A stretch of 24,502 nt of DNA from Desulfobacteraceae bacterium (GCA_011391835.1 JAABPS010000001.1:1-24502); one strand, 5' to 3'. Positions 9,502 through 23,298 are shown, numbered from the stretch's first letter. The notes: generated by a model not told the origin, from the sequence alone. Numbers and translations are program-made.

Positions 9502-11847
9502 ATGCCAGATCAGCAGCCCATGGAGATAAGTGCTGACAATATTCCCGGACAGCTCCCTATACTCCCTCTATTTGATACTGCCCTTTTCCCAAAAATGCTG
9601 CTTCCCATTGTGGTCATGCAGGCAGATTCCATTAAGCTGGTTGATGAAGCAATGGCAAAAGACCGAATCATCGGCCTTATCGTATCAAAAAAACCGGACA
9701 GGGAAAGCTTTACATCGCGTGATAATCTTTATTCTGTCGGGACCAGCTCGTTAATTCTTAAAATGGCAAAGATGGATGATAACAAGGCTCAGCTTCTGGT
9801 ACAGGGGCTGGAACGATTTAAAGTAAAAAAATTCCTTGAAGATAAACCGTATCTGAAGGCCGAGGTGGAGCATATCAAGGTTGTAGAAAAAAGAAATAAA
9901 GAAATAGAAGCGCTTATGTCCAACCTTGTTTCATTATTTATACGAATCACCGAGCTTTCACCAGGCCTGCCTACAGAATTTGGGCCCATGGCACGATCCA
10001 TACAGGAGGCAGGCACTCTGGCGGATATGGTGGCTTCTACCATCAATACCTCTCTGGAAGAAAAACAGAAGATCCTTGAGATTCTTGATGTGAAAAAGAG
10101 GTTACTGGAAGTGTCGCGCCTGACCAATCAGCAACTGGAGATTCTTGAGCTTGGGAATAAAATACAATCTCAGATAAAAGGAGATATGGATAAAAGTCAG
10201 AGGGAGTATTATCTGCGGCAACAGCTAAAAGCCATAAAAAAGGAACTTGGGGAAGAAGAAGAAAAGCCTGTTGAAATTGAAGAATACAGGATGAAAATTG
10301 CCAAGAAAAATCTTCCCGAAGAAGCACGGAAAGAGGCTGACCGGGAACTGGACCGATTGTCCCGCATGCATCCATCATCAGCCGAATATACGGTTGCCTC
10401 TACCTATTTAGACTGGATTACAGCACTGCCCTGGCATGACAGCACAAATGATAACCTGGATATTAAAAAGGCAATAAAAATTCTGGATGAAGATCATTTC
10501 GGTCTTGAAAAGGCAAAACAACGGATTATTGAGTATCTCGCAGTGCGCAAGCTAAAAAATGATTCCAAGGGTCCTATTCTTTGTTTTGAGGGGCCACCTG
10601 GTGTAGGCAAAACCTCTCTGGGCCATTCCATTGCGCGTGCGCTGGGGCGTAAGTTTGTTCGGATCTCGCTTGGCGGCATCAGAGATGAAGCGGAAATCCG
10701 AGGGCATCGACGCACCTATGTCGGGGCGCTTCCCGGGAGAATCATTCAGGGGTTGCGAAGAGCGGAATCGAACAATCCGGTTTTTATGCTGGATGAAATC
10801 GATAAGGTGGGAAGTGATTTTCGCGGGGATCCTTCATCCGCGCTTCTGGAAGTGTTAGATCCGGAGCAGAACTTTTCTTTTTCCGATCATTATCTGGATG
10901 TTTCATTTGATCTTTCCAATGTCATGTTTATTACTACAGCCAATATTTTAGATACCATTCCGCCTCCGCTGCTTGACAGGATGGAGGTGCTAAAACTGGC
11001 AGGCTACACAGAAGATGAAAAAATAAAAATTGCCAATCGATACCTGATTCCCAGGCAGCGAAAAGCCCATGGTTTAAAATCAGGCCAGATTGTTTTCACA
11101 AAGGGAGCAGTCCAAAAGATTATAACCAGCTATACGCGGGAAGCGGGCTTGCGAAATCTGGAACGGGGGGTAGCAAATATTTGCCGAGGGGTTGCCTCCA
11201 AGATTGCAGAAGGGAAAAGCAGGCTTTATACAATTAAACTCGAAAATATATCAAAATATTTGGGACCTGAAAAAATAAGTTCAGAAGCAAAAGAACGGAC
11301 GTCTACCCCGGGTGTTGCCATGGGGCTTGCCTGGACTCAAACCGGCGGGGAATTGCTTTTCGTGGAAGCCACGGCCATGAAGGGAAACAACAAACTAACC
11401 CTCACCGGGCAACTGGGCGATGTCATGAAGGAATCGGCAACTGCGGCTTTGAGCTTCATACGGACAAATGCCGCGTCTTTGGGTATTGATGAAAAATATT
11501 TTGAAACGCACGATATCCACATCCACGTTCCAGCAGGGGCTATCCCAAAGGATGGGCCATCTGCGGGCGTAACCATGCTTACTGCGCTGACATCGCTTTT
11601 TACGAATAAAATTATTAAAAAAGATCTGGCAATGACCGGAGAAATTACATTAAGAGGCCTGGTGCTTCCTGTAGGCGGGATTAAGGAGAAAGTATTGGCA
11701 GCTCATCGCGCGGGAATTAAAACACTGATCCTTCCAAAATGGAATGAGAAAGATATGGTAGATATACCCAAAAAAGTCCTCAAAGAGATCCGTTTCCACT
11801 TTGCTTCCAAAATGATGGATGTCTTAAAGATTGCACTTTCAAAATAG
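9502..11847 (+). CDS. lon: ATP-dependent protease La (LonA)
   Basis: N-terminal LON domain, Walker A GPPGVGKT, RRTYVGALPG, Walker B MLDEIDK, catalytic PKDGPSAG (Ser) and GGIKEK (Lys). Confidence 0.97.
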   Translation: MPDQQPMEISADNIPGQLPILPLFDTALFPKMLLPIVVMQADSIKLVDEAMAKDRIIGLIVSKKPDRESFTSRDNLYSVGTSSLILKMAKMDDNKAQLLVQGLERFKVKKFLEDKPYLKAEVEHIKVVEKRNKEIEALMSNLVSLFIRITELSPGLPTEFGPMARSIQEAGTLADMVASTINTSLEEKQKILEILDVKKRLLEVSRLTNQQLEILELGNKIQSQIKGDMDKSQREYYLRQQLKAIKKELGEEEEKPVEIEEYRMKIAKKNLPEEARKEADRELDRLSRMHPSSAEYTVASTYLDWITALPWHDSTNDNLDIKKAIKILDEDHFGLEKAKQRIIEYLAVRKLKNDSKGPILCFEGPPGVGKTSLGHSIARALGRKFVRISLGGIRDEAEIRGHRRTYVGALPGRIIQGLRRAESNNPVFMLDEIDKVGSDFRGDPSSALLEVLDPEQNFSFSDHYLDVSFDLSNVMFITTANILDTIPPPLLDRMEVLKLAGYTEDEKIKIANRYLIPRQRKAHGLKSGQIVFTKGAVQKIITSYTREAGLRNLERGVANICRGVASKIAEGKSRLYTIKLENISKYLGPEKISSEAKERTSTPGVAMGLAWTQTGGELLFVEATAMKGNNKLTLTGQLGDVMKESATAALSFIRTNAASLGIDEKYFETHDIHIHVPAGAIPKDGPSAGVTMLTALTSLFTNKIIKKDLAMTGEITLRGLVLPVGGIKEKVLAAHRAGIKTLILPKWNEKDMVDIPKKVLKEIRFHFASKMMDVLKIALSK

Positions 11848-11862
11848 GTATTAATCACTGAG

Positions 11863-12636
11863 ATGGTACGATCCATTAGCATACTCAAAACTATGAAAAT
11901 TGGTGTGATGATCCGGTTTGTTTTTTTGTGCTGGTTTATTTTTTCGGCTTTTGGATGTGCCGCATCAAAACCGCCTTCAACCATACCGGGATATCCGAAA
12001 CCCTACAAAGTGCTGGGGAAGTGGTATCAGCCATTGCCAAGTGCACAAGGCTTTGGTCAATGCGGTATTGCGTCCTGGTACGGGGAACCGTTTCATGGAC
12101 GGAAAACATCCAATGGGGAGACGTATGATATGTATGGCATCTCAGCGGCACACAAAACGCTGCCGCTGGGAACCCATGTATGGGTACGAAATTTAGAAAA
12201 TAACAGGGAGATCACTGTCCGCATTAATGACCGGGGGCCTTTTGTTAACGACCGGATCATTGATCTTTCATACGGTGCTGCGCAGCAACTGGGAATCGTT
12301 AAATCCGGCACAGCGCCGGTCGAAATTGTAGCAATGGGAATCGAGACAGGTTCGGATTCATCTGCATCATCCGGGCAGGTTCCCCAGCCCCTGGATTATT
12401 ATAAAGGAAAATTTACCTTTCAAGTAGGCGCATTTAAAGTGAAGGGAAATGCGGATCGATTAAAAGAGGAATTGGGTCAGAAATATCAAAACGCCCATAT
12501 TGCTGTTTTTGACAGCGGTGAAGAGACGTTTTACCGGGTCCGGGTAGGCCAAAACAATGACCTTAAGGAAGCGGAAGCATATGAACAGATTCTGATTCAA
12601 GATGGATTTAAAGATGTTTTTATCATCGCGGAATAG
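11863..12636 (+). CDS. rlpA: Septal ring lytic transglycosylase RlpA family lipoprotein (DPBB + SPOR)
   Basis: Hydrophobic signal ending in the lipobox SAFGC, then GIASWYG, AAHKTLP, VRINDRGPF and RIIDLS, and a C-terminal SPOR (FQVGAF...YRVRVG). The start may be 11893 or 11908. Confidence 0.93.
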   Translation: MVRSISILKTMKIGVMIRFVFLCWFIFSAFGCAASKPPSTIPGYPKPYKVLGKWYQPLPSAQGFGQCGIASWYGEPFHGRKTSNGETYDMYGISAAHKTLPLGTHVWVRNLENNREITVRINDRGPFVNDRIIDLSYGAAQQLGIVKSGTAPVEIVAMGIETGSDSSASSGQVPQPLDYYKGKFTFQVGAFKVKGNADRLKEELGQKYQNAHIAVFDSGEETFYRVRVGQNNDLKEAEAYEQILIQDGFKDVFIIAE

Positions 12637-12638
12637 CC

Positions 12639-13211
12639 ATGAAGCAAAAAGTCCTGTTTGTTGACCGAGATGGCGTCATCAATAAAGATTCTCCAGGGTA
12701 TATCAAAAGCTGGTCTGAATTTGAGTTTCTGCCGCGAAGCCTTGAAGCAATTCGACACCTGACAACAAACGGATTTGATGTGATTTTAATTACCAACCAG
12801 TCTGTAATTCATAGGAAACTTGTTTCAAAAAACGATCTTGAGGATATCCATACCCGGATGAAGGAAGTTATAAACCATCATGGGGGTGAAATAAAAGATA
12901 TCTTTTACTGCCCTCATGTTCCGGAAGATCGGTGCGACTGTCGGAAACCTAAACCCGGGCTAATTGTACAGGCACAACAGAAATATCAAATCGACGTGAA
13001 AAAAACAATGATGGTGGGAGACAATTCCAAGGATATAGAATGCGCCATAAATGCACGATGTGGCGGGAACATCCTTGTTCAGGCAGGAAATGAACGAACG
13101 GCTGAAAAGATTTTAGCAGACAAGGGAATCGTTCCCAATTTTATTGTCAACGATCTCTACGAGGCTGCCCGGCTGATAACCAATCCCGATAAAAAAGTAT
13201 ATCCCCAGTAA
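12639..13211 (+). CDS. gmhB: D-glycero-beta-D-manno-heptose-1,7-bisphosphate 7-phosphatase (HAD)
   Basis: FVDRDGVIN (DxD), ITNQS, Zn loop CPH...CDCRKPKPG, and MVGD. Confidence 0.88.
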   Translation: MKQKVLFVDRDGVINKDSPGYIKSWSEFEFLPRSLEAIRHLTTNGFDVILITNQSVIHRKLVSKNDLEDIHTRMKEVINHHGGEIKDIFYCPHVPEDRCDCRKPKPGLIVQAQQKYQIDVKKTMMVGDNSKDIECAINARCGGNILVQAGNERTAEKILADKGIVPNFIVNDLYEAARLITNPDKKVYPQ

Positions 13212-13226
13212 ACGTACGCTTTCATC

Positions 13227-15395
13227 ATGATCACACTTGCCGGCAACCTGGAACGAATTACATATCAAAATCAGGAAAACCATTTCACAATTGCGAAGTT
13301 AAGTGTTGATGGCACTCGAAACCTCATAACCATTCTTGGCTACATGGCGGGGATAACTCCCGGAGAAACCATACGGGTTCGTGGAACGTGGGAGACGCAT
13401 CCACGGTACGGTCAGCAGTTTAAGGTGGATTCATTCGACGTGACACTGCCCGCTTCAATTGATGGGATACGAAATTATCTCGCTTCAGGGATTGTCAAGG
13501 GAATAGGCAAGAAGATGGCCGAACGGCTGGTCGATTATTTCAAGGATCAAACTCTTTTGGTTATTGAAAACAGCCCGGAGAAACTTACCTGTGTTGAAGG
13601 CATTGGTGAGAAAAAGGCACAGCAGCTGCATCAGGCATGGCAGGAGCATCATTTTCTAAGAAGACTGATGCAGTTTCTTCAGGAAAACGGGTTGAAGTTA
13701 TCGTATGCGGCAAAAATTTTTAGACAGTACGGAAAAGAGGCCATCGATATCCTTACTGTGGAACCGTACAGGATTGCGTATGATATTCCTGGAATCGGTT
13801 TTATTATTGCAGATACAATTGCGCAGAATCGAGGCGCTAAAAAGGATGATCCTGAGCGGATACACGCGTGCATCCTATTTCTCATGGAACAATCAATTTC
13901 AGAGGGTGATACCTATATCCATGAAGATGAGCTGCTCCAGAAATGCTTTGAGATATTTGAAATTGGATACGAAGAGGCCACAGAAATTCTTGAGGCGCTA
14001 AGCAAGGCGGGCGATGTTATTAAAGAAAAATCCGTAGAGAGTGAAGGCCGTACAGTGGTTTTTGCCAAATCTATTTATGAGGCGGAAATAGGGGTTGCCA
14101 AAAAAATCAGAGCCATATTGTCAGTTCCGGTTGAATCGTATCCAATTGAAAGCGAACAGATTACCGCAGAAGTGTATAAAAAACTTGCCATTGATCTTTC
14201 ACCGGAACAACTGGGGATCATTAAAGAGATACTGGCGGACAGGATAGCTGTTATAACCGGCGGGCCTGGAACAGGCAAGACCACCCTGATACGGTCTTTA
14301 AATGCAATCTTTGAAGCGTATGGAGAAACGGTCTGCCTGGCCGCACCGACCGGTCGCGCAGCCAGAAGACTTTCCGAAGTATCCGGGAGAAAAGCGGAAA
14401 CCATACATAAACTGTTGGGATACAGCCCACAGGAAAATACGTTTCAAAAAAATCAGGATCATCCCATTGCTGCAGGCGTTATCATTATTGACGAAGCATC
14501 CATGGTCGATACCGTATTAATGTTTTATCTCCTCAGATCCATTCTGCTCACATCGAGATTCTATCTTGTGGGTGATATTTTTCAGCTCCCTTCTGTTGGG
14601 CCTGGGAATGTGCTCTCTGATATTATCACATCAAACAGGGTGAAGGAATTTAAGCTTGAAAAAATTTATCGACAATCCGATGAAAGTCCAATTATTATAA
14701 ATGCCCATAAAGTCCGCAATGGCGAAGATCTGATTTTGGATGACCATGACGATACCCAGGATTTATCGGAGTTCTATTTTTTGGAGCAGGACAACCCGGA
14801 ACGGGTGGTTTCAACAATTATCGAACTATGCTGCAGATCAATTCCCAATTCCTTGCATCTTGATCCTGTAAATGGAATTCAGGTGATAACACCCATGCAT
14901 AAGGGAGTTGTTGGCACCATCCATTTGAACCAGGAACTTCAAAAAGCACTAAACCAGAATACCGATGTCTTTCAAACCAATGGAAGCACATTTAAGTATG
15001 GCGATAAGGTTATGCATTTAAAAAACAACTATCAAAAGGAGGTGTTTAACGGAGATATTGGGCGGATAAACGGCATTGATATGGAAGAAAGAAAATTTTC
15101 AGTGGCATACGATGACCGAACAGTGGAATACGATTTTGCAGAAGCGGATGATATTTCTCTGGCCTATGCCATCTCGGTACATAAGTCGCAGGGTTCTGAG
15201 TACCCTGCAGTCATCGTTCCGCTGATGACGCAGCATTTTGCTTTGCTTCAGAGAAATCTGCTGTACACGGCCATGACGCGTGGGAAAGAACTGGTAGTCC
15301 TCATCGGCACAAGACGCGCCCTGGATATTGCGTTGAAAAACGATAAACCCAAGCGGCGTCTTTCAAGTCTGTCAAAAAGGATTGATACTCTGTAG
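13227..15395 (+). CDS. recD2: ATP-dependent RecD-like SF1B DNA helicase RecD2
   Basis: N-terminal OB/HhH region (VEGIGEKKA), GGPGTGKTT, APTGRAA, IIDEASM, VGDIFQLPSVG, IYRQ and HKSQGSEY. No recB or recC adjacent. Confidence 0.94.
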   Translation: MITLAGNLERITYQNQENHFTIAKLSVDGTRNLITILGYMAGITPGETIRVRGTWETHPRYGQQFKVDSFDVTLPASIDGIRNYLASGIVKGIGKKMAERLVDYFKDQTLLVIENSPEKLTCVEGIGEKKAQQLHQAWQEHHFLRRLMQFLQENGLKLSYAAKIFRQYGKEAIDILTVEPYRIAYDIPGIGFIIADTIAQNRGAKKDDPERIHACILFLMEQSISEGDTYIHEDELLQKCFEIFEIGYEEATEILEALSKAGDVIKEKSVESEGRTVVFAKSIYEAEIGVAKKIRAILSVPVESYPIESEQITAEVYKKLAIDLSPEQLGIIKEILADRIAVITGGPGTGKTTLIRSLNAIFEAYGETVCLAAPTGRAARRLSEVSGRKAETIHKLLGYSPQENTFQKNQDHPIAAGVIIIDEASMVDTVLMFYLLRSILLTSRFYLVGDIFQLPSVGPGNVLSDIITSNRVKEFKLEKIYRQSDESPIIINAHKVRNGEDLILDDHDDTQDLSEFYFLEQDNPERVVSTIIELCCRSIPNSLHLDPVNGIQVITPMHKGVVGTIHLNQELQKALNQNTDVFQTNGSTFKYGDKVMHLKNNYQKEVFNGDIGRINGIDMEERKFSVAYDDRTVEYDFAEADDISLAYAISVHKSQGSEYPAVIVPLMTQHFALLQRNLLYTAMTRGKELVVLIGTRRALDIALKNDKPKRRLSSLSKRIDTL

Positions 15396-15475: not shown

Positions 15476-15895
15476 CTATGAATCTGTGTCAGAGGATTCG
15501 GGTATGGGAAGTTTAAAAAACTGAACCCCCTCCTCTTTCAAGGTCTTTTCTTCTGCCTTGGTGCTTACCCCGCGGATATTTCGCGGTTCCGAAACGCCAT
15601 AATGGATTTTTAATGCTTCTTTGGAAAAGTCGGCACCTACATTGTCGAAATTTTTTTCAACATAATCCGAAATCTCTTTAGTCATCTTCGCCAGAACGAT
15701 CTCTTTGCTGTCGATTTTTGGCAAAGAATCCGCTGACTTGATAGCAAACGTGGACAGAACTTTAAATACATGGGTATCATTACAGACAGGGCATGCGATC
15801 AGCCCTTTTTTTTGCTGTTCTTCATATGCCCTGCTGTCTTCAAACCAGCCTTCAAATGTATGGCTATTTTTGCATTTTAAATCAAATACGATCAT
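15476..15895 (-). CDS. DUF1178 family protein (putative Zn ribbon)
   Basis: MIVFDLKC...HTFEGWF, CPVC, FDNVG..F..EA.KIHYG and NIRG. Confidence 0.88.
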   Translation of the reverse strand: MIVFDLKCKNSHTFEGWFEDSRAYEEQQKKGLIACPVCNDTHVFKVLSTFAIKSADSLPKIDSKEIVLAKMTKEISDYVEKNFDNVGADFSKEALKIHYGVSEPRNIRGVSTKAEEKTLKEEGVQFFKLPIPESSDTDS

Positions 15896-16040: not shown

Positions 16041-16090
16041 CATAAATAAACTGTGTAATGTTAATGAGTTAAAGAATAAGGTTGATACAC

Positions 16091-17743
16091 ATGGAAATAG
16101 AAGCAGATTTTTTTGTCATCGGCAGCGGCATTGCAGGATTGAGTTTCGCTCTTAAGGTGGCTGATGCTGGCACAGTTGTCATGGTGACGAAAAAGGAAGC
16201 CATTGAAAGCAATACCAACCTGGCACAGGGGGGAATCGCAACAGTTTTCAGCAGTCTTGATTCCTTTAACCTTCATATCCAGGATACGCTTGCCGCTGGT
16301 GACGGGCTCTGCAACCGCGATGTGGTAGAGATGGTGGTAAAGGATGGTCCGGACAGAATCCGGGAATTAATCGAATTAGGGGTAACATTTAATGTAAAAG
16401 CGGAAAAGGATACCTGTAGCGTATCTGTTCCTGATAGTATGGAGTTTGATCTCGGACGCGAGGGGGGGCACTCCCAAAACCGCATTGTCCATGCACATGA
16501 TATGACAGGAAAAGAGGTGGAGAGTGTTCTGTTAAATCGGGTTAAAAATCACCCGAATATCAGCCTCTTAGAAAATCATCTAGCCATTGATCTGATCACC
16601 GTTTCAACCCGTCTAAAAAGCGAACAGATTACAACCACCCATGAGCATTACTGTTACGGAGCGTACGTTTTAGACAGGGAATTAAACAAAGTGAAAACGA
16701 TCCGCGCCAAGATAACGCTCCTGGCAACTGGTGGTGCGGGGAAGGTGTATTTATACACCAGCAATCCGGATATTGCCACAGGCGATGGTATCGCGATGGC
16801 CTACAGGGCCGGTGCGAGTGTGGCCAATCTTGAGTTTGTTCAATTTCATCCCACGTGCCTGTATCATCCGGATGCCAAAAATTTCCTTATTTCCGAAGCA
16901 GTTCGTGGGGAAGGGGGGATTCTTTTAACTGCCTCCGGACACCGGTTTATGGAGAGATATGACTCTCAGAAGGATCTGGCATGCAGAGATGTTGTTGCAC
17001 GTGCTATTGATACAGAGCTGAAAAAAAGCGGCGATGATTCAGTCTATTTGGATATATCCCATAAGGATTCTGATTTTATTAAAAAACGTTTTCCGAATCT
17101 GTATGAAAAGTCTTTGGAATACGGTTTTGATATGACCGCTGAACCTCTTCCAGTGGTTCCTGCTGCGCATTACATGTGCGGGGGAGTTGTTACTGATGTG
17201 AAGGGCAGGACAGATATTAACCGGCTGTATGCCATAGGAGAGACGGCCTGTACCGGTTTGCACGGTGCGAACCGGCTTGCAAGTAATTCGCTGCTGGAGG
17301 CGCTTGTGTATGCAGATAAAGCCGCAAAAGCAGCTATCGAGGAAATTCAAACATCAGGAGGGAAGATCGATGTTCCGAATGCATCGGCGTGGGATGACGC
17401 AGGTACAACGGACAGCGATGAACTGGTGACCGTTTCTCAAAACTGGGATGAAATTCGACGATTTATGTGGAACTATGTGGGCATTGTCAGATCCAATAAA
17501 CGGTTGTCCAGAGCAAAGCGTCGAATTGAGCTTATCAGCAGTGAGATCAAAGAGTATTATTGGAATTTTAAAATTGCTCCGGATTTAATAGAGCTTAGAA
17601 ATATTGCCATGGTGTCAGAGTTAATTATTCAATGCGCCTTAAACAGAAAGGAAAGCCGGGGGCTTCATTACAATATCCAGTATCCGGAAAAAGACGATAA
17701 GCAATGGCTTAAGGATTCTATTCTTCGGCAGCCGTCTAAATAG
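16091..17743 (+). CDS. nadB: L-aspartate oxidase
   Basis: GSGIAGL (FAD binding), AQGGIA, REGGHS, FVQFHPT, SEAVRGEGG, HYMCGG, GLHGANRLASNSLLE and ESRGLHY. I prefer ATG 16091 over TTG 16082. Confidence 0.95.
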   Translation: MEIEADFFVIGSGIAGLSFALKVADAGTVVMVTKKEAIESNTNLAQGGIATVFSSLDSFNLHIQDTLAAGDGLCNRDVVEMVVKDGPDRIRELIELGVTFNVKAEKDTCSVSVPDSMEFDLGREGGHSQNRIVHAHDMTGKEVESVLLNRVKNHPNISLLENHLAIDLITVSTRLKSEQITTTHEHYCYGAYVLDRELNKVKTIRAKITLLATGGAGKVYLYTSNPDIATGDGIAMAYRAGASVANLEFVQFHPTCLYHPDAKNFLISEAVRGEGGILLTASGHRFMERYDSQKDLACRDVVARAIDTELKKSGDDSVYLDISHKDSDFIKKRFPNLYEKSLEYGFDMTAEPLPVVPAAHYMCGGVVTDVKGRTDINRLYAIGETACTGLHGANRLASNSLLEALVYADKAAKAAIEEIQTSGGKIDVPNASAWDDAGTTDSDELVTVSQNWDEIRRFMWNYVGIVRSNKRLSRAKRRIELISSEIKEYYWNFKIAPDLIELRNIAMVSELIIQCALNRKESRGLHYNIQYPEKDDKQWLKDSILRQPSK

Positions 17744-17807: not shown

Positions 17808-18719
17808 ATGTATTTTGAGGTGTCTGGCGTTCAGGTATTTCCGGCCATTCCTTTTTTGGTCGCTTTTGTGGCTTCTTTTTTTTCATCCATGGGCGGCCTT
17901 TCAGGCGCATTTCTTCTTTTGCCTTTCCAGGTCAGTGTTCTTGGGTTTACCAGTCCAGCAGTGAGTCCGACAAACCTTGTCTATAATATCGTTGCCATAC
18001 CCAGTGGTGTGTACAGATATATAAAAGAAGGGCGGATGGCGTGGGTTCTTGTAGGTATTATCATTACCGGGACAATTCCCGGCGTGATTATAGGAGCTGT
18101 AGTGCGGATAACATACCTGCCTGATCCGGCAAAATTCAAGTTTTTTGTGGGCTGCGTTCTTCTCTATATTGGATTCAGGCTTGTCCATGATCTGGTGAAA
18201 GGTAAAAATGAAAAATCGATCAAAGATACTGCAACTGAATTAAATCAAGTTCATGGGAAAGGTATTCGAACGGTAAAGTTTTCGATAACCAAAAGTACGT
18301 ATCGATTTTTGGATGAAGATTTTACGTTTAATACAATGGGTCTGTTTTTTCTTACCTTTGTGGTGGGAATTATAGGGGGTGTATACGGTATTGGCGGCGG
18401 CGCGATTATTGCTCCGTTTCTTGTAACCTTTTACAGGCTGCCGGTATATACCATTGCAGGTGCAGCATTGCTGGGGACACTGGTAACGTCAATTGCTGGG
18501 GTTTTCTTTTACTCCGTCATCGAGGCCTTTTATGGGGATTCGGTGACTATATCGCCAGACTGGATGCTTGGCATGCTTTTTGGCGCAGGGGGATTTGTGG
18601 GGATGTACTGCGGGGCAAGGCTTCAAAAGCATGTATCTGCAAAGATCATTAAGGCAATTCTCGCTGTCCTGATTTTATTTATTTCTGTCCGTTATATTTT
18701 AAATAGATTCCATTTTTAA
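17808..18719 (+). CDS. Sulfite exporter TauE/SafE family transporter
   Basis: Two repeats with MGGLSGAFLLLP and GVYGIGGGAIIAP, and multiple TM segments. Confidence 0.88.
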   Translation: MYFEVSGVQVFPAIPFLVAFVASFFSSMGGLSGAFLLLPFQVSVLGFTSPAVSPTNLVYNIVAIPSGVYRYIKEGRMAWVLVGIIITGTIPGVIIGAVVRITYLPDPAKFKFFVGCVLLYIGFRLVHDLVKGKNEKSIKDTATELNQVHGKGIRTVKFSITKSTYRFLDEDFTFNTMGLFFLTFVVGIIGGVYGIGGGAIIAPFLVTFYRLPVYTIAGAALLGTLVTSIAGVFFYSVIEAFYGDSVTISPDWMLGMLFGAGGFVGMYCGARLQKHVSAKIIKAILAVLILFISVRYILNRFHF

Positions 18720-18728
18720 TCCATGCCA

Positions 18729-19649
18729 TCATAACTCTTCCGGCATGAATGCGATCACATCGTCAATGATGGGCGTATCTGAAAATAGCATGACGAGCCT
18801 GTCCATTCCCAGAGCGTTTCCGGATGCTTCGGGCATATCGTCAAGAGACTGGAGAAATCTTTCCGGCATGGGATACATCTCCTTCCCAGATATTATACGG
18901 GCATTTCGCTCTTCTTCAAATCGTTGTCTTTGTTCAGCAGGATCCGTTATTTCTGAAAAAGCGTTGCATATTTCTATCCCCTGAATATAAAGCTCAAATC
19001 GCTGGGCAAGGGCGGGCTCCCCGGACTTTAGTTTTGAAAAAGCCCTTTGAGACTCAGGATAATCAAAAAGAAATAGCGGCTTTCCTATTCCAAGGTGAGG
19101 TTCTACCTCAAATGCGATGGTTTCATGAAAACAATTTCGGGAAAGGGCATGTTCAAGTGATAGTGTGGCATAGGTATCAAACGCTTCATTGACTGACATT
19201 TTGGGCCATGGATGTGTGAAGTCAATGGGCTTTTCCTGATAGACGATGGAATCACCACAGCCAATGGCTTTACAGGCATATCGTATAAGTTCTTCGCACT
19301 GGTCCATCATTTCAATATAAGAAGTATCAGCAGCATACCATTCCAGCAGAGTAAACTCAGGCAGATGCCTGCTGCCCCGCTCTTTCTTACGAAAGGATTT
19401 ACAGATCTGGAAAATACGGGGATATCCTGCACAGAGAAGTCTTTTCATGCACAGCTCAGGAGATGTTTGTAAGAACCATCCATCCGATGATACGGCATCA
19501 ATGGTGGCTTCCGGTGCGGGCGCGGGAATGCGAAGAGGGGTTTCAACTTCCAAAAAATTTTTCTGGATAAAAAAACTTCGAACTGCCTGAACAATGAGAG
19601 CTCTTAATTTCAGGCGTTGAATAATTTTAGTCTGTCTGTAATTTGCCAT
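18729..19649 (-). CDS. epmA: EF-P lysine aminoacylase (beta-lysine transferase) EpmA/GenX
   Basis: Class II LysRS catalytic domain only, with no anticodon domain: FLEVETP, LQTSPELCMKRLL, FRKKERGSRHLPEFTLLEWY, RFELYIQGIEICNAFSE and GNALGMDRL. Confidence 0.93.
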   Translation of the reverse strand: MANYRQTKIIQRLKLRALIVQAVRSFFIQKNFLEVETPLRIPAPAPEATIDAVSSDGWFLQTSPELCMKRLLCAGYPRIFQICKSFRKKERGSRHLPEFTLLEWYAADTSYIEMMDQCEELIRYACKAIGCGDSIVYQEKPIDFTHPWPKMSVNEAFDTYATLSLEHALSRNCFHETIAFEVEPHLGIGKPLFLFDYPESQRAFSKLKSGEPALAQRFELYIQGIEICNAFSEITDPAEQRQRFEEERNARIISGKEMYPMPERFLQSLDDMPEASGNALGMDRLVMLFSDTPIIDDVIAFMPEEL

Positions 19650-19712: not shown

Positions 19713-21026
19713 TTATTTTTTCTCAAGATAGATATCTTCGGTTCTGTCCTGAAGGACAACCATGCCATAGGCGCTTCTGTCTGCTGATTCATACCAAGCA
19801 TAGCCTGTTTCTTTACATTTCGCACATGCTTTTAAGGGGATGTGTATTGCAAGGATATGGTGACCCCTGTCCGATGACGAATCGATGCAAAGCGCTCCGC
19901 CGCAGTCATTGCAGGGCCGGATTTTTTCTTTTTGCTTTTCACTGATGCCGTCCGTATCGTAAAATATGCTGCGCGTGCGCTGATCAAATCCTTCTGTTCG
20001 TTGGATTTGATCCCTTAAAGAATTTCGCCGTTGCCAGTACGAAAGAACGGTTTCACCGATCTTTTCAATAGCCTTGGTAATTTCAGAGGATTGGCGTATT
20101 TTATCCGGATTGTAATCGGGCTCTTTGACCTTGCTGTAATCAATCCCCGCCATGGCAAGGATAATGCCCACATTCACATACGGAAGTGCGCCTTCAATGG
20201 AATACCCGCCTTCAAGTACCGCAATATCGGGCTGGAGGATGGATGTAAGCGCGGCGTATCCTTGGGCGGAAAAATTCATATTGGCCAGCGGATCGGTAAA
20301 ATGATTATCCTGTCCTGCGGAATTAACGATGAGATCCGGCTTGAAATCATCTAAAACCGGTTTAATCACATGTTTCATGACATGTAAAAAGCCCTCTTCA
20401 GAGGTATTGGGGGGGAGCGGGATATTGAGTGTTGTGCCTACGGCATTGGGCCCTCCCAGTTCATTGGTAAATCCGGTGCCAGGGTAGAGGGTTCTGCCGT
20501 CCTGATGTATGGAAATAAACAACGTGTCCGGATCATGCCAGTAGATATCCTGCGTGCCGTCTCCATGATGGCAGTCTGTATCGACAATAGCCACTTTATC
20601 AATTTTATAAGCCCTTCGCAAATATTCAATCATGATGGCTTCGATATTGATATTGCAGAAACCCCGCGAACCATGAACGATTCGCATGGCGTGGTGGCCG
20701 GGCGGACGAACCAGCGCGAATCCGCGTTCAATTTCTTTAGAAAGAACCGCAGAACCAATGGTTTTAGCTCCTCCTGCGCTGATAAAATGAGACTCTGTCG
20801 TGACGTTCCATACATCCGGCACGCAGAAGTGAACCCGCTGGATATCCTTTACCAGAACAAGATCGGGTTTGAATTCGATAATCCCTTCAATGTCAAAAAG
20901 ACCTTCTTCAAAGACCTGGTCCTGAGTATAGAGCAGGCGTTCTTCTCTTTCCGGATGGGTCGGACTGATGGCCCAATCAAACGCAGGAAAAAAGACAAGT
21001 CCGGTTTTATGTCTGGCGCTTAGCAT
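19713..21026 (-). CDS. Histone deacetylase (HDAC/AcuC/AphA) family Zn-dependent amidohydrolase with a C-terminal extension
   Basis: RPPGHH, GFCNIN, DTDCHHGDGTQ, SIHQ, YPGTG, NIPLPP, SAGQD...DPL and EGGY are all intact. About 110 extra C-terminal residues carry two CxxC pairs. Confidence 0.92.
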   Translation of the reverse strand: MLSARHKTGLVFFPAFDWAISPTHPEREERLLYTQDQVFEEGLFDIEGIIEFKPDLVLVKDIQRVHFCVPDVWNVTTESHFISAGGAKTIGSAVLSKEIERGFALVRPPGHHAMRIVHGSRGFCNINIEAIMIEYLRRAYKIDKVAIVDTDCHHGDGTQDIYWHDPDTLFISIHQDGRTLYPGTGFTNELGGPNAVGTTLNIPLPPNTSEEGFLHVMKHVIKPVLDDFKPDLIVNSAGQDNHFTDPLANMNFSAQGYAALTSILQPDIAVLEGGYSIEGALPYVNVGIILAMAGIDYSKVKEPDYNPDKIRQSSEITKAIEKIGETVLSYWQRRNSLRDQIQRTEGFDQRTRSIFYDTDGISEKQKEKIRPCNDCGGALCIDSSSDRGHHILAIHIPLKACAKCKETGYAWYESADRSAYGMVVLQDRTEDIYLEKK

Positions 21027-21072
21027 GTTAAAAATCTCTTCGTACGTCTTATGTGCTGACAGTAAATAATGG

Positions 21073-22755
21073 CTACACTAAAAGCATTTCCGCGATATCG
21101 GCATATTCGCTTAAAATACCGGGTTTCACCTGCACTTTGATGCGGATATTTTTTCCTGTGGAATGAAATCCCCGTACCATATTAAATTGCAGATCTTCGA
21201 GTACTTCCAGTTCAAGATCCTCCGGGTTTGCCCCCTTGTGCAGCGCTTTTGCCTTAAGAAGTTCATTGGCTTTTTTTAACGCATCGTCTCGTGTAAAGCT
21301 TCTGTCGATGGATTCATAAAAATTTTCTTCAGGAGAGGAAGCAAATCCCCGTTCTGTGTCTGCGAAAAAAACCACTTCACACGTTGTCCGTGCCAAGGCG
21401 GCCCCGATGGCATTGGCAACTTTCCATTTTGGAACAACGCCAACCGCTATGCCGGAATATTCTTCAATATGTCTGGCAAAATAAGGTGCGGGCCCTCCGA
21501 TAATAAGAATTTGTTTTGGATCGACCTTGTAGCCTTCTTGAAGCTCATGGATGGTGTAAACCGGTTTGCTGTTGATTCGATCGATCATAGCCCGCGCTTC
21601 ACTGATAATCTTTTTGTAGGTAGCATCGAAAATTTTCAAAGCAGCGGTTTGAAGCGGATCACCCAATTGATCGGCAATCTGCTGAATGCCGTTTCTGGCT
21701 TTTTCATTATCTCCGTCTTTAATTAACCCGATAACACACAGTGCATCTGTAGGCGTAGGAGACTGACCTCCATAGGCCATGGCAGAACCTTTTCGATCCG
21801 GACCAATTTTTAAATGACCGTCTTCTACGCGTACAAAACTGTCCCCCCCAATGCCAATGGAATGGGTGTACAGGGAACGAATAAGTGTTTTATAGTAGGA
21901 CAGACTGGTGCCCAGCGGATCCAGGACAGGTACACGGTCAATTAACACAGCCATATCCGTAGTCGTGCCGCCAATATCAAGAACCAGGCAGTCCTGCTGA
22001 ACCGGCGCAAACGGGATAGACCCCATAATGCTGGCTGCGGGTCCGGAAACGATGGTCTGGCCCGGGAAGTCCATGGACGCTTCCAGGCTCATGGTGCCAC
22101 CGTCAGCTTTCAGAATATGGAGGGGAATGTGGAGCCATTTTTGTTCTATGGATTTAATGATGGCATCATAAAATTCCTTATGGATCGGATATACAGCCGC
22201 ATTGAGATAGGTGGTAGAGATGCGGCGGGGAAAGTTGAGGTTGCCTGAAATGCGATGTCCCAGAAATACTTTTTCAAAGTCATCTTTTAAGATTTCATAT
22301 ATTGCCAGCTCGTGGGAAGGGTTCCGGACAGAGAATTTACTGACAACTCCCACATACGGTATGCCGCTTTTTTTGAGTGTTTTTGAGATGGTTTTGATTT
22401 CAGCAGGATCAATGGGTTTGATTTCCCGGCCACGATGGTCAATAGAACCCGAAACAGGAAAATAATGATCATTTGTCCGAAAAAACTCAGGGTCAACACC
22501 CGGACCGCTTGATACGATCATGCCGATGGGTGGAAGATTGTTTTGAACGATGGCATTGGTAGTCAGTGTTGTGCTGAATACAGCGCGGTGAATCTCCTGA
22601 GGTTCAACGCCTTTTGTAATTTTGTTCAGACCCGAAAGAACGCTGCGAAAAAGATTTGAAGCGTCTGTAGGTACCTTGACTTCATTTATCAGACCCTGTT
22701 TCCCCAGGAGAACAACATCCGTGTGCGTACCGCCGACATCAAGGCCGATAATCAT
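21073..22755 (-). CDS. Hydantoinase/oxoprolinase A-type (ATP-binding, ASKHA/actin-like) protein
   Basis: GLDVGGTHTD, STTLTTNA, KADGG, SGPAAS, LDIGGTTTD, SIGIGGDS, PTPTDA and ANAIGAA. I prefer ATG 22755 (AGGA Shine-Dalgarno) over the track's 22815. Confidence 0.9.
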   Translation of the reverse strand: MIIGLDVGGTHTDVVLLGKQGLINEVKVPTDASNLFRSVLSGLNKITKGVEPQEIHRAVFSTTLTTNAIVQNNLPPIGMIVSSGPGVDPEFFRTNDHYFPVSGSIDHRGREIKPIDPAEIKTISKTLKKSGIPYVGVVSKFSVRNPSHELAIYEILKDDFEKVFLGHRISGNLNFPRRISTTYLNAAVYPIHKEFYDAIIKSIEQKWLHIPLHILKADGGTMSLEASMDFPGQTIVSGPAASIMGSIPFAPVQQDCLVLDIGGTTTDMAVLIDRVPVLDPLGTSLSYYKTLIRSLYTHSIGIGGDSFVRVEDGHLKIGPDRKGSAMAYGGQSPTPTDALCVIGLIKDGDNEKARNGIQQIADQLGDPLQTAALKIFDATYKKIISEARAMIDRINSKPVYTIHELQEGYKVDPKQILIIGGPAPYFARHIEEYSGIAVGVVPKWKVANAIGAALARTTCEVVFFADTERGFASSPEENFYESIDRSFTRDDALKKANELLKAKALHKGANPEDLELEVLEDLQFNMVRGFHSTGKNIRIKVQVKPGILSEYADIAEMLLV

Positions 22756-22843
22756 ACTAATTTCCTGTTGAGGTTCTATGCATATAGTTTGCCGGGCAGC
22801 CCAGCATATTGTCATATATGAATATGTCTAATGAAGAGACGTC

Positions 22844-22872
22844 ATGCTATCCGAATTACAGGGGGTTGTCAA
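22844..22872 (-). promoter_or_regulatory. sigma70-type promoter (TTGACA-N17-TAGCAT) for the hydantoinase-HDAC(-epmA) unit
   Basis: Forward-strand tgtcaa at 22867-22872 and atgcta at 22844-22849, with exact 17-nt spacing. Confidence 0.65.
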
Positions 22873-22941: not shown

Positions 22942-23298
22942 TTATGAACCGATAATTTTGTTCCTGAACAGAAAAAAGACAGCCCCCATCAGGCAGAGTC
23001 CTGCATAAAAGTAATCCATCGTGAGCTTTTCTTTGATGTAATATATTGAAAAAGGGATGAAAATAAAGAGGGTAATGACTTCCTGCAGGATTTTAAGCTG
23101 GCCAACTGACATGACCTCATGTCCCACACGATTCGCGGGCACTTGGAGTAAATATTCAAACAATGCAATTCCCCAGCTCAGGAGTGCGGCGATGACCCAG
23201 GGTTTATGTGAAAGATTGCGTAAATGCCCATACCATGCAAATGTCATAAATACATTGCTGCAGCAGAGCATAACGGCAGTGATTACAATACGGTTCAC
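22942..23298 (-). CDS. DMT family small membrane protein (DUF486/DMT_6-like)
   Basis: SNVFMTFAWYGHL, SWGIALFEYLLQVPANRVG and QLKILQEVITL. Confidence 0.88.
   Translation of the reverse strand: MNRIVITAVMLCCSNVFMTFAWYGHLRNLSHKPWVIAALLSWGIALFEYLLQVPANRVGHEVMSVGQLKILQEVITLFIFIPFSIYYIKEKLTMDYFYAGLCLMGAVFFLFRNKIIGS

What the first reader, a model, noticed from the sequence alone, without database searches (positions are those of the whole stretch)
19713..22872. Hydantoinase/oxoprolinase A subunit without a B subunit, paired with an HDAC-fold amidohydrolase: candidate new ATP-dependent amide or lactam pathway
Seen: a near-consensus promoter, then an intact ASKHA-type A protein, then 46 nt later an intact HDAC-family enzyme. 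No hydantoinase-B gene occurs in the window. Established: ATP-dependent hydantoinases, oxoprolinases, caprolactamase and acetone carboxylase pair the A-type ATP module with a metal-binding B module, while HDAC/AcuC/AphA enzymes are Zn amidohydrolases acting on acyl-lysine or acyl-polyamines. Inference: the HDAC-fold protein replaces the B module as hydrolytic partner, or the pair runs sequential ATP-dependent activation and deacylation of an N-acyl or cyclic amide. I know of no characterised example.
Basis: partly seen in the sequence, partly recalled or inferred. Interest (0 to 1): 0.72.

Follow-up and report, generated by a model that had tools for sequence, protein, structure and literature searches.

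The report
ATPase plus zinc deacylase enzyme pair
A hydantoinase-A-type ATPase with no usual partner subunit sits beside a zinc deacetylase-like enzyme; the two travel together across sulfate-reducing bacteria and are predicted to dock, so they probably form an undescribed ATP-driven amide-cleaving enzyme of unknown substrate.

Summary
On the minus strand lie an intact HyuA-type ASKHA ATPase (21073-22755, 560 aa), then 46 nt later an intact HDAC-fold zinc hydrolase (19713-21026, 437 aa) with an extra Cys4 zinc-ribbon domain. No HyuB was found in this 69%-complete MAG.

- **Co-occurrence.** In 301 genomes of the phylum, the HDAC ortholog occurs in 66 and the A ortholog in 64, all 64 among those 66. 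A lies directly upstream of HDAC in 70 of 73 assessable loci.
- **No B partner.** 39 of the 66 have no HyuB, several of them complete genomes. In the relatives where I compared positions, HyuB sits beside a paralogous HyuA.
- **Predicted binding.** The model scores 0.88 against a best control of 0.15. The interface uses clade-invariant residues and covers the HDAC active-site entrance.

Best reading: a two-subunit ATP-dependent amidohydrolase in which the HDAC fold takes HyuB's place, substrate unknown.

epmA follows in 45 of 71 loci, so a beta-lysine or EF-P link is possible. It is not obligate, because 26 of the 66 genomes have no EpmA. A test for 5-oxoprolinase replacement was negative.

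I found no publication describing the pair. This scan has met it before on other DNA.

The parts
22844..22872 (-). Promoter-like site, TTGACA-17 nt-TAGCAT, upstream of the A gene
   Evidence: matches 10 of 12 positions. Such sites are no more frequent here than in shuffles (12 found against 10.1 +/- 3.4), so this is weak evidence.
21073..22755 (-). HyuA-type ASKHA ATPase ('A'), 560 aa. The ORF stays open up to 22815, but the conserved start is the ATG at 22755.
- Pfam PF05378 and PF01968.
- Invariant DxGGTxxD, DxGGTTTD and GGPA nucleotide motifs.
- AlphaFold model pLDDT 90.8.
- Best folds are NMHase, acetone and acetophenone carboxylase HyuA-type subunits, and CapA (TMq 0.63-0.77).
19713..21026 (-). 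HDAC-fold zinc amidohydrolase, 437 aa. It has a clade-specific N-terminal segment (residues 11-45) and a C-terminal Cys4 zinc-ribbon domain (about 348-436).
- PF00850.
- Invariant H111/H112, D151/H153/D240 and Y275.
- Invariant C372, C375, C401 and C404.
- Model pLDDT 87.2.
- Class II HDAC-like fold (Kdac1, HDAH; about 30% identity).
18729..19649 (-). epmA (genX/poxA), the EF-P--(R)-beta-lysine ligase, 306 aa, 63 nt downstream of the HDAC gene
   Evidence: TIGR00462 scores 312.8 bits against a cut-off of 286.9; it lies directly downstream of the HDAC gene in 45 of 71 assessable loci.

Best explanation
The two proteins form one heteromeric enzyme. It would be an ATP-dependent amidohydrolase or lactamase built like the HyuA/HyuB enzymes (5-oxoprolinase, N-methylhydantoinase, caprolactamase), but with an HDAC-fold zinc hydrolase in the place of HyuB.

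**Inferred mechanism**
1. A binds ATP and phosphorylates the carbonyl oxygen of a stable small amide or lactam.
2. The activated intermediate passes across the interface into the Asp-His-Asp zinc site of the HDAC subunit.
3. Metal-bound water hydrolyses it there.

The Cys4 zinc-ribbon domain lies outside the interface. Its role is open.

**Shown**
- Both proteins are intact and keep their catalytic motifs.
- They co-occur almost strictly and are adjacent.
- HyuB is absent from many pair-bearing genomes.
- A confident predicted interface is built from clade-invariant residues.

**Inferred**
- The binding itself, the channelling, the ATP-dependent hydrolysis and the class of substrate.

The recurrent epmA neighbour, and occasionally a KamA-family aminomutase, make a lysine- or beta-lysine-derived amide or lactam the leading substrate guess. 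It is no more than a guess.
For: **Co-occurrence in the phylum sample (301 genomes at least 85% complete)**
- The HDAC ortholog (E <= 1e-90, full length) is in 66 genomes and the A ortholog in 64. All 64 are among the 66.
- The two genes are adjacent and co-oriented even where A identity falls to 38-40%.

**Adjacency in representative genomes**
- In 80 loci from species-representative genomes (at least 581 matches in all), A is directly upstream on the same strand in 70 of 73 assessable loci.

**HyuB is not the partner**
- HyuB was not found in 39 of the 66 pair-bearing genomes. These include the single-contig genomes G028 and G289 (100% and 99% complete).
- In the relatives where I compared positions, HyuB lies beside a paralogous HyuA of about 30% identity.

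**Predicted complex**
- ipSAE is 0.88 (three runs, 0.87-0.88) against a best control of 0.15.
- The mark was reached by 58 of 80 solved complexes and 2 of 110 mismatched pairs. These counts hold only roughly here because my own alignments were used.
- The runs agree in at least 95% of contacts, and the partner's pLDDT is 92.
- No HyuA-HDAC complex is known to me that the model could have recalled.

**The interface uses conserved residues**
- On A: G84-P85-G86, H107, K140-F141, L173-N174-F175-R177, P398-Y400-T401 and F524-N525.
- On HDAC: F13-P14-A15-D17-W18 and H24...D45, plus loops around catalytic Y275.
- HDAC residues 11-40 have low confidence in the monomer model (pLDDT 55-63), as expected for a segment that orders on binding.

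**Comparison with caprolactamase (PMC8453981)**
- CapA phosphorylates the substrate and CapB hydrolyses it at an Asp-His-Asp-His metal site. A tunnel lined by CapA D302, R439 and loop 106-118 connects the two.
- By HMM alignment these map to A D267 and to about residues 403-404 and 95-106. Those positions lie in or next to the predicted HDAC-contact segments.

**Active-site differences**
- Invariant polar residues Q239, N241 and H242 flank zinc ligand D240, where canonical enzymes have SAGFDA.
Against: - No biochemical data exist.
- The complex is a model score, not a measurement.
- I could not obtain the coordinates. So I could not measure the distance between the ATP site and the zinc site, or superpose the model on CapAB.
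- In one family (f81), and in G028 and G144, the two genes are apart.
- Desulfonema magnum has A with no HDAC gene in the locus read, about 10 kb to either side.
- Loci L049, L050 and L100 keep HDAC-epmA without A upstream.
- HDAC-fold enzymes have not been shown to hydrolyse phosphorylated lactims.
- The very high conservation of the HDAC protein (mean column identity 63% across the phylum) and its zinc ribbon would also suit a macromolecular substrate.
Confidence: 0.5

Rival explanations
1. The pair is an accessory to EF-P beta-lysylation. It would supply, salvage or proofread the substrate of EpmA, for example by releasing beta-lysine from an N-acyl or lactam form, or by recycling the beta-lysyl-lysine isopeptide.
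For: - epmA is the only recurrent third gene. It lies within 3 kb downstream in 45 of 71 loci, with a median gap of 45 nt and sometimes a 4-nt overlap.
- Three loci keep HDAC-epmA even without A.
- A KamA-family 2,3-aminomutase sits directly upstream of A-HDAC-epmA in G012 and within 2-4 kb in L038 and L053.
- EpmA is found in 40 of 66 pair-bearing genomes against 52 of 235 others.
- The genome's own EF-P has the KPGKGQA Lys loop.
- No protein reaches the EpmB equivalog cut-off in any of the 41 genomes searched, that is this genome and its 40 relatives.
Against: - 26 of 66 pair-bearing genomes, including whole families (f51, f81, f83, f99), have no EpmA.
- Outside Desulfobacterales, epmA is usually elsewhere in the genome.
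- G028 has the pair but neither EpmA nor any KamA-family gene.
- Many EpmA-bearing genomes lack the pair.
- Related genomes are not independent, so the enrichment is overstated.
Confidence: 0.2
2. The pair is an ATP-gated protein (or other macromolecule) lysine deacylase. The HDAC subunit would be the only catalyst. A would be a regulatory or chaperone subunit that opens or closes the active site on ATP hydrolysis, and the zinc ribbon would recruit the target.
For: - The HDAC protein keeps every residue of a classical lysine deacylase.
- A is predicted to sit over the active-site entrance.
- An extra zinc-ribbon domain lies outside the interface.
- Sequence conservation is very high, as is typical of enzymes with macromolecular partners.
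- The neighbours are translation-related in two lineages: epmA in one and an RlmN-like gene in the other.
Against: - A keeps the whole HyuA architecture, and its invariant non-nucleotide residues face the partner. That fits a catalytic subunit better than a lid.
- The clade-specific changes next to the zinc ligand (Q239, N241, H242) argue for a substrate other than acetyl-lysine.
- I know of no precedent for an ASKHA-gated HDAC.
Confidence: 0.15
3. The pair is a third, non-orthologous type of 5-oxoprolinase. It would replace PxpABC or the HyuA/HyuB-type enzyme in these anaerobes.
For: - HyuA-family enzymes include 5-oxoprolinase.
- The pair looks like a housekeeping function, since it is kept in a 2.1-Mb genome (G028).
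- None of the 9 Desulfobacterales in the phylum sample has PxpA.
- An earlier unchecked note of this scan reports the pair next to a GGACT/AIG2 gene in another genome.
Against: - There is no phyletic complementarity. PxpA occurs in 17 of 66 pair-bearing genomes against 54 of 235 others.
- Genomes lacking both PxpA and HyuB make up 29 of 66 (44%) against 99 of 235 (42%).
Confidence: 0.07
4. These are two independent enzymes that are merely co-transcribed. They would either catalyse sequential steps without a complex or be unrelated.
For: - In some lineages the genes are apart.
- Operons often join enzymes that do not bind each other.
Against: - Co-occurrence is near-perfect across a phylum.
- Clade-invariant surface residues on both proteins coincide with the predicted interface.
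- The complex scores 0.88 against 0.15 for the best control.
Confidence: 0.08

Closest known systems
HyuA/HyuB-type ATP-dependent lactamases and carboxylases: caprolactamase CapAB (PDB 6YRA), N-methylhydantoinase (9H03), 5-oxoprolinase OPLAH, acetone and acetophenone carboxylases
   Same: - The A protein has the HyuA domains and fold: PF05378 and PF01968, TMq 0.63-0.77, and intact ASKHA ATP motifs.
- It is predicted to dock a metal-dependent hydrolase.
- The hydrolase has Asp/His metal ligands, as CapB does (Asp-His-Asp-His).
   Different: - There is no HyuB.
- The partner has an unrelated fold, from the arginase/deacetylase superfamily.
- A is about 130 residues shorter than canonical HyuA (560 against about 690-720 aa), has no Hydant_A_C match and is only 17-22% identical.
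- The substrate is unknown.
Bacterial class II-like classical deacylases: Kdac1 of A. baumannii (8SZT), HDAH (1ZZ0, 5G0X), HdaH, acetylpolyamine amidohydrolase, HDAC6 catalytic domains
   Same: - The HDAC fold.
- The His-His dyad, the Asp-His-Asp zinc ligands, the catalytic Tyr and the RPPGHHA motif.
- About 30% identity.
   Different: - An invariant clade-specific N-terminal segment, predicted to bind A.
- NSAGQDNH in place of SAGFDA next to the zinc ligand.
- An added Cys4 zinc-ribbon domain of about 90 aa.
- An obligate genomic partner ATPase.
- No NCBIfam equivalog matches it.
EpmA/EpmB/EpmC pathway of EF-P beta-lysylation
   Same: - A bona fide epmA follows the pair in most Desulfobacterales loci.
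- EF-P has the Lys-tip loop.
- A KamA-family aminomutase is sometimes adjacent.
   Different: - Neither A nor HDAC belongs to any known Epm family.
- No EpmB equivalog reaches its cut-off.
- The pair also occurs in lineages without EpmA.

Membership tests
Hydantoinase/oxoprolinase A subunit (HyuA) | Pfam Hydant_A_N and Hydantoinase_A domains above their gathering scores | tested here: met
   106.9 and 159.4 bits against cut-offs of 25.2 and 22.9.
Hydantoinase/oxoprolinase A subunit (HyuA) | ASKHA nucleotide motifs: P1 DxGGTxTD, P2 DxGGT, and the adenosine motif | tested here: met
   D6-G8-G9-T10-D13, D260-G262-G263-T264 and G420-G421-P422 are invariant or nearly so in 17 orthologs. The motifs are as defined for CapA in PMC8453981.
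Hydantoinase/oxoprolinase A subunit (HyuA) | A cognate HyuB (PF02538) subunit, adjacent or fused | tested here: not met
   none in the window's genome, and none in 39 of 66 pair-bearing genomes. In the relatives where I compared positions, HyuB lies beside a paralogous HyuA.
Hydantoinase/oxoprolinase A subunit (HyuA) | Full-length architecture of about 690-720 aa with the C-terminal region of canonical HyuA | tested here: not met
   560 aa, no Hydant_A_C hit, and TM-score normalised to the target of only 0.52-0.64.
Hydantoinase/oxoprolinase A subunit (HyuA) | ATP-dependent opening of a lactam or hydantoin | not testable with these tools
   This needs an enzyme assay.
Classical Zn-dependent HDAC/deacylase family (PF00850) | Domain match and HDAC fold | tested here: met
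   212.2 bits. Foldseek E 5e-26 to Kdac1 with TMt up to 0.81.
Classical Zn-dependent HDAC/deacylase family (PF00850) | Catalytic His-His dyad, Asp-His-Asp zinc ligands and catalytic Tyr | tested here: met
   H111/H112, D151/H153/D240 and Y275 are invariant in 18 orthologs.
Classical Zn-dependent HDAC/deacylase family (PF00850) | Membership of a named bacterial subfamily (AcuC, acetylpolyamine amidohydrolase, HdaH) | tested here: not met
   no NCBIfam model matches; the clade motif is NSAGQDNH against canonical SAGFDA; the 2024 survey of bacterial deacylases mentions neither hydantoinase nor a zinc ribbon.
EF-P beta-lysylation system (EpmA/EpmB) | An EpmA equivalog and an EF-P with Lys at the loop tip | tested here: met
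   TIGR00462 scores 312.8 against a cut-off of 286.9; the loop reads KPGKGQA.
EF-P beta-lysylation system (EpmA/EpmB) | An EpmB equivalog present | tested here: not met
   the best KamA-family protein scores 231 bits against a cut-off of 369.3. It is a generic KamA-family radical SAM enzyme.
EF-P beta-lysylation system (EpmA/EpmB) | The A-HDAC pair depends on EpmA (strict co-occurrence) | tested here: not met
   26 of 66 pair-bearing genomes lack EpmA.
5-oxoprolinase (functional class) | Phyletic complementarity with PxpABC and HyuAB-type enzymes | tested here: not met
   44% of pair-bearing genomes lack both, against 42% of the others.

The most novel reading that the evidence does not exclude
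The A-HDAC complex is a new class of ATP-dependent amidohydrolase that acts on a beta-lysine- or lysine-derived lactam or isopeptide. In Desulfobacterales it would be a previously unrecognised fourth component of the EF-P beta-lysylation pathway, supplying, recycling or proofreading substrate for EpmA. That would explain how these bacteria run EpmA without a canonical EpmB.
Probability: 0.15. Interest if true: 0.8.

Novelty: new variant of a known kind. Interest (0 to 1): 0.68.

Why it matters
If the model is right, the ATP-driven 'activate, then hydrolyse' strategy of the HyuA/HyuB enzymes has been rebuilt with an unrelated zinc hydrolase fold. That would extend both what HyuA-type ATPases can partner with and what HDAC-fold enzymes can do.

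The pair is a well-conserved enzyme of unknown function. It occurs in at least 581 matching stretches among the contigs of 185,579 species-representative genomes, and an Atlas lead, unchecked for context, suggests it also occurs in Bacillota. It is retained in a 2.1-Mb genome, so it probably handles a common metabolite or damage product that no annotated enzyme covers.

ATP-dependent lactamases are also sought as mild biocatalysts for nylon-type lactams.

The recurrent epmA neighbour gives a concrete, testable lead on how EF-P is modified in bacteria that lack a recognisable EpmB.

Tried and rejected
- **5-oxoprolinase replacement.** I tested for phyletic complementarity with PxpA (PF03746) and HyuB (PF02538) in 301 genomes and found none.
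- **Riboswitch or other RNA clue.** Rfam at gathering threshold found nothing in the window.
- **Promoter as evidence.** The site is not above shuffles.
- **A fused to another domain in f62, f90 and f101.** The long open frames are upstream read-through in high-GC genomes. The ORFs align from the normal start.
- **Other conserved neighbours.** ORF clustering over 20 and then 80 loci found only A, HDAC and EpmA. The remainder is lineage-specific synteny:
  - RlmN-like plus his genes in Syntrophobacteraceae.
  - A class IV aminotransferase in three loci.
  - GDPD.
  - Sensor kinases.
- **Co-decay of the trio in G002.** A is intact and only HDAC and EpmA are fragmented. An assembly artefact is not excluded, so I did not use this as evidence.
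- **Replacement of A in the three exception loci.** No alternative ATPase is present. One locus has a type ISP restriction-modification gene inserted upstream.
- **Distant HDAC relatives.** At 50% identity only about three full-length clusters exist.
  - P0127 keeps A upstream.
  - P0134 has the same neighbourhood without A.
  - The next relatives, about 360 aa, lack the zinc ribbon. The one whose context I read (P0139) looks archaeal and has no A.
- **Zinc-ribbon domain.** The Atlas feature search gave only hypothetical proteins scoring below 0.9.
- **EF-P loop type in EpmA-less genomes.** All have a Lys tip (KPGKGGAF), which is uninformative.
- **Literature.** Six full-text searches and two targeted reads found no description of a HyuA-HDAC pair or of its link to EpmA.
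Full report
**Observation**

The finding's two genes lie on the minus strand. The first ORF (21073-22815) encodes a protein with Pfam Hydant_A_N and Hydantoinase_A domains. Its conserved start is the ATG at 22755 (MIIGLDVGGT), preceded by AGGAAA. That start gives the 560-aa product which public gene callers also report.

The second gene begins 46 nt after the first one's stop. It spans 19713-21026 and encodes a 437-aa protein with a Hist_deacetyl domain at 1.3e-62.

The promoter-like TTGACA-17-TAGCAT is at 22872-22844. Such matches are no commoner in this region than in shuffled sequence, at 12 against 10.1 +/- 3.4. Rfam finds no riboswitch or other RNA in the window.

The genome is a Desulfobacterales MAG of 551 contigs, 69% complete. 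It has no Hydantoinase_B match and only this one Hydantoinase_A gene.

The next gene on the same strand lies 63 nt downstream, at 18729-19649. It is epmA, the EF-P--(R)-beta-lysine ligase, with TIGR00462 scoring 312.8 bits against a cut-off of 286.9.

The HDAC protein also has a C-terminal extension of about 90 aa with four invariant cysteines: C372, C375, C401 and C404. In the AlphaFold model this folds as a confident beta-rich domain with one helix.

**Is the pairing conserved?**

Across 40 relatives, nearly all from different families of the same order, orthologs of A (45-66% identity) and of HDAC (59-89%) are found in about 30 genomes. They are almost always adjacent and co-oriented.

I then searched a sample of 301 genomes of the phylum, each at least 85% complete. 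The full-length HDAC ortholog (E <= 1e-90) is present in 66 and the A ortholog in 64. All 64 are among the 66. Adjacency persists where A identity has fallen to 38-40%. The two genes are apart only in family f81, G028 and G144.

A scan of species-representative genomes matched at least 581 stretches. In the best 80 loci, A is directly upstream on the same strand in 70 of 73 assessable cases.

At 50% identity clustering the full-length HDAC type forms only about three clusters, so this is a compact family. One distant member keeps A upstream. Another has the same neighbourhood without A. The ESM Atlas lists look-alike clusters of 446-457 aa that are commonest in Thermodesulfobacteriota and Bacillota. 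I treat that as a lead only.

**Is there a B subunit somewhere?**

No. HyuB is not found in 39 of the 66 pair-bearing genomes of the phylum sample. These include the single-contig genomes G028 and G289, which are 100% and 99% complete.

**Do the two proteins bind?**

I submitted the pair with alignments of 17 and 18 orthologs.
- The score (ipSAE) was 0.88 (three runs, 0.87-0.88) against a best control of 0.15.
- In the tool's calibration the mark was reached by 58 of 80 solved complexes and 2 of 110 mismatched pairs. These counts hold only roughly here because my own alignments were used.
- The runs agree in at least 95% of contacts, and the partner's pLDDT is 92.
- The model supports binding. 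It does not show it.

I know of no solved HyuA-HDAC complex that the model could have remembered.

The interface is made of residues that are invariant in this clade.
- On A: G84-P85-G86, H107, K140-F141, L173-N174-F175-R177, P398-Y400-T401 and F524-N525.
- On HDAC: the clade-specific N-terminal segment F13-P14-A15-D17-W18 and H24 to D45, plus loops around the catalytic Tyr275.

That N-terminal segment has low confidence in the monomer model, with pLDDT 55-63 for residues 11-40. This fits a segment that orders on binding. The zinc ribbon is not part of the interface.

**How it probably works**

Both proteins look catalytically competent.
- A keeps the two phosphate-binding motifs and the adenosine motif of ASKHA ATPases.
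- A's fold matches the HyuA-type subunits of N-methylhydantoinase, acetone carboxylase, acetophenone carboxylase and caprolactamase, with TMq 0.63-0.77.
- A is about 130 residues shorter than those subunits and only 17-22% identical.
- HDAC keeps the His-His dyad, the Asp-His-Asp zinc ligands and the catalytic Tyr.
- HDAC's fold is that of class II-like bacterial deacylases.

In caprolactamase, the CapA subunit is proposed to form a phosphorylated (or carboxylated) lactim. This intermediate travels through a tunnel of about 40 A to the Asp-His-Asp-His metal site of CapB, where it is hydrolysed. The tunnel is lined by CapA Asp302, Gln330, Arg439 and the loop 106-118 (PMC8453981).

By the HMM alignment, CapA Asp302 corresponds to A's invariant D267. 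Arg439 corresponds to about residues 403-404, and the loop falls near residues 95-106. These positions lie in or next to the predicted HDAC-contact segments 104-112, 281-289 and 396-406. This mapping is approximate and is an inference.

Next to zinc ligand D240, the clade has invariant polar residues in the motif NSAGQDNH, where canonical enzymes have SAGFDA. That suggests a substrate other than an acetyl-lysine side chain.

The HDAC-fold protein takes the place of HyuB as the metal-dependent hydrolytic partner of an ATP-dependent activating subunit. The substrate would be a stable small amide or lactam. Binding, channelling, chemistry and substrate are all inferred.

**The epmA link**

epmA is the only recurrent third gene.
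- It lies within 3 kb downstream of HDAC in 45 of 71 assessable loci. The median gap is 45 nt, and in one locus the two genes overlap by 4 nt.
- Three loci that lack A upstream still keep HDAC-epmA.
- In G012 a KamA-family amino-acid 2,3-aminomutase of unclear specificity sits directly upstream of A-HDAC-epmA. Its orthologs lie 2-4 kb away in two further loci.
- The genome's own EF-P has the Lys-tip KPGKGQA loop.
- No protein reaches the EpmB equivalog cut-off in any of the 41 genomes searched, that is this genome and its 40 relatives.
- EpmA is found in 40 of 66 pair-bearing genomes against 52 of 235 others.

Against an obligate link:
- 26 pair-bearing genomes, including whole families, lack EpmA.
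- Outside Desulfobacterales epmA is usually elsewhere in the genome.
- G028 has the pair with neither EpmA nor any KamA-family gene.
- Many EpmA-bearing genomes lack the pair.
- Related genomes are not independent, so the enrichment is overstated.

I rate a dedicated EF-P role at about 0.2. A lysine- or beta-lysine-type substrate is the leading guess, but it is only a guess.

**A tested alternative**

If the pair were a replacement 5-oxoprolinase, it should be enriched in genomes that lack the known types. It is not.
- PxpA occurs in 17 of 66 pair-bearing genomes against 54 of 235 others.
- Genomes lacking both PxpA and HyuB make up 44% against 42%.

**Novelty**

Six full-text searches and two targeted reads found no description of this pair or of its link to EpmA. 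One read was the 2024 survey of bacterial classical deacylases; the other was a 2026 review of EF-P modifications.

This scan has met the same pair before on other DNA. Several first readers noted it. Two follow-up agents independently called it a conserved, undescribed ATPase-deacetylase module that probably forms one ATP-driven amide-cleaving enzyme. One note places it between mutS and mutL in a Firmicute. Those are unchecked AI notes. My own counts and the complex prediction agree with them.

I class the finding as a new variant of a known kind. It has HyuA/HyuB-like logic with a non-homologous hydrolase subunit.

Noticed in passing
L124 (G000:C259:1485-2405) and L125 (G000:C500:2-499): The same MAG holds a second epmA (62% identical), which is not preceded by an HDAC gene. 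It also holds a second partial HDAC C-terminus (62% identical) at a contig start, which is not followed by epmA. These are either contamination (3.7% estimated) or a second, unlinked copy.
   Followed up: partly
L035:7796-8869 (G012); also L038:2956-4026 and L053:1367-2437: A KamA-family radical-SAM amino-acid 2,3-aminomutase lies next to the A-HDAC-epmA cluster. Its best matches are the arginine, glutamate and lysine aminomutase models, all below their cut-offs. The window genome's own KamA-like gene (C551) is only 34% identical to it.
   Followed up: partly
L123:7671-10061 (G002:C12): In this relative the A gene is intact, but the HDAC and epmA genes are each split over three frames. This could be real decay or local assembly error.
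   Followed up: partly
L068:9329-11716 and eight further Syntrophobacteraceae loci: Instead of epmA, the HDAC gene is followed by an RlmN-like radical-SAM gene and then by hisI and hisG.
   Followed up: partly
L017:6995-8116, L016:12910-14973, L020:10483-11595: A class IV aminotransferase gene lies immediately upstream of, or divergent from, the A gene in three families (f90, f62, f81).
   Followed up: no
window 15476-15895 (-), 16082-17743 (+), 17808-18719 (+), 22942-23298 (-): The flanking genes are a DUF1178 protein, L-aspartate oxidase NadB, a TauE/SafE-family permease and a DMT_6 (DUF486) membrane protein. None recurs beside the pair in other genomes.
   Followed up: yes
window 9502-15395 (+): A run of housekeeping genes: Lon protease, an RlpA-like lytic transglycosylase with a SPOR domain, a HAD phosphatase and a RecD2 helicase.
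   Followed up: no
L014 (Desulfonema magnum CP061800.1): The A ortholog stands alone, with no HDAC or epmA gene in the locus read (about 10 kb to either side). This is one of the few cases where the pair is unlinked.
   Followed up: no
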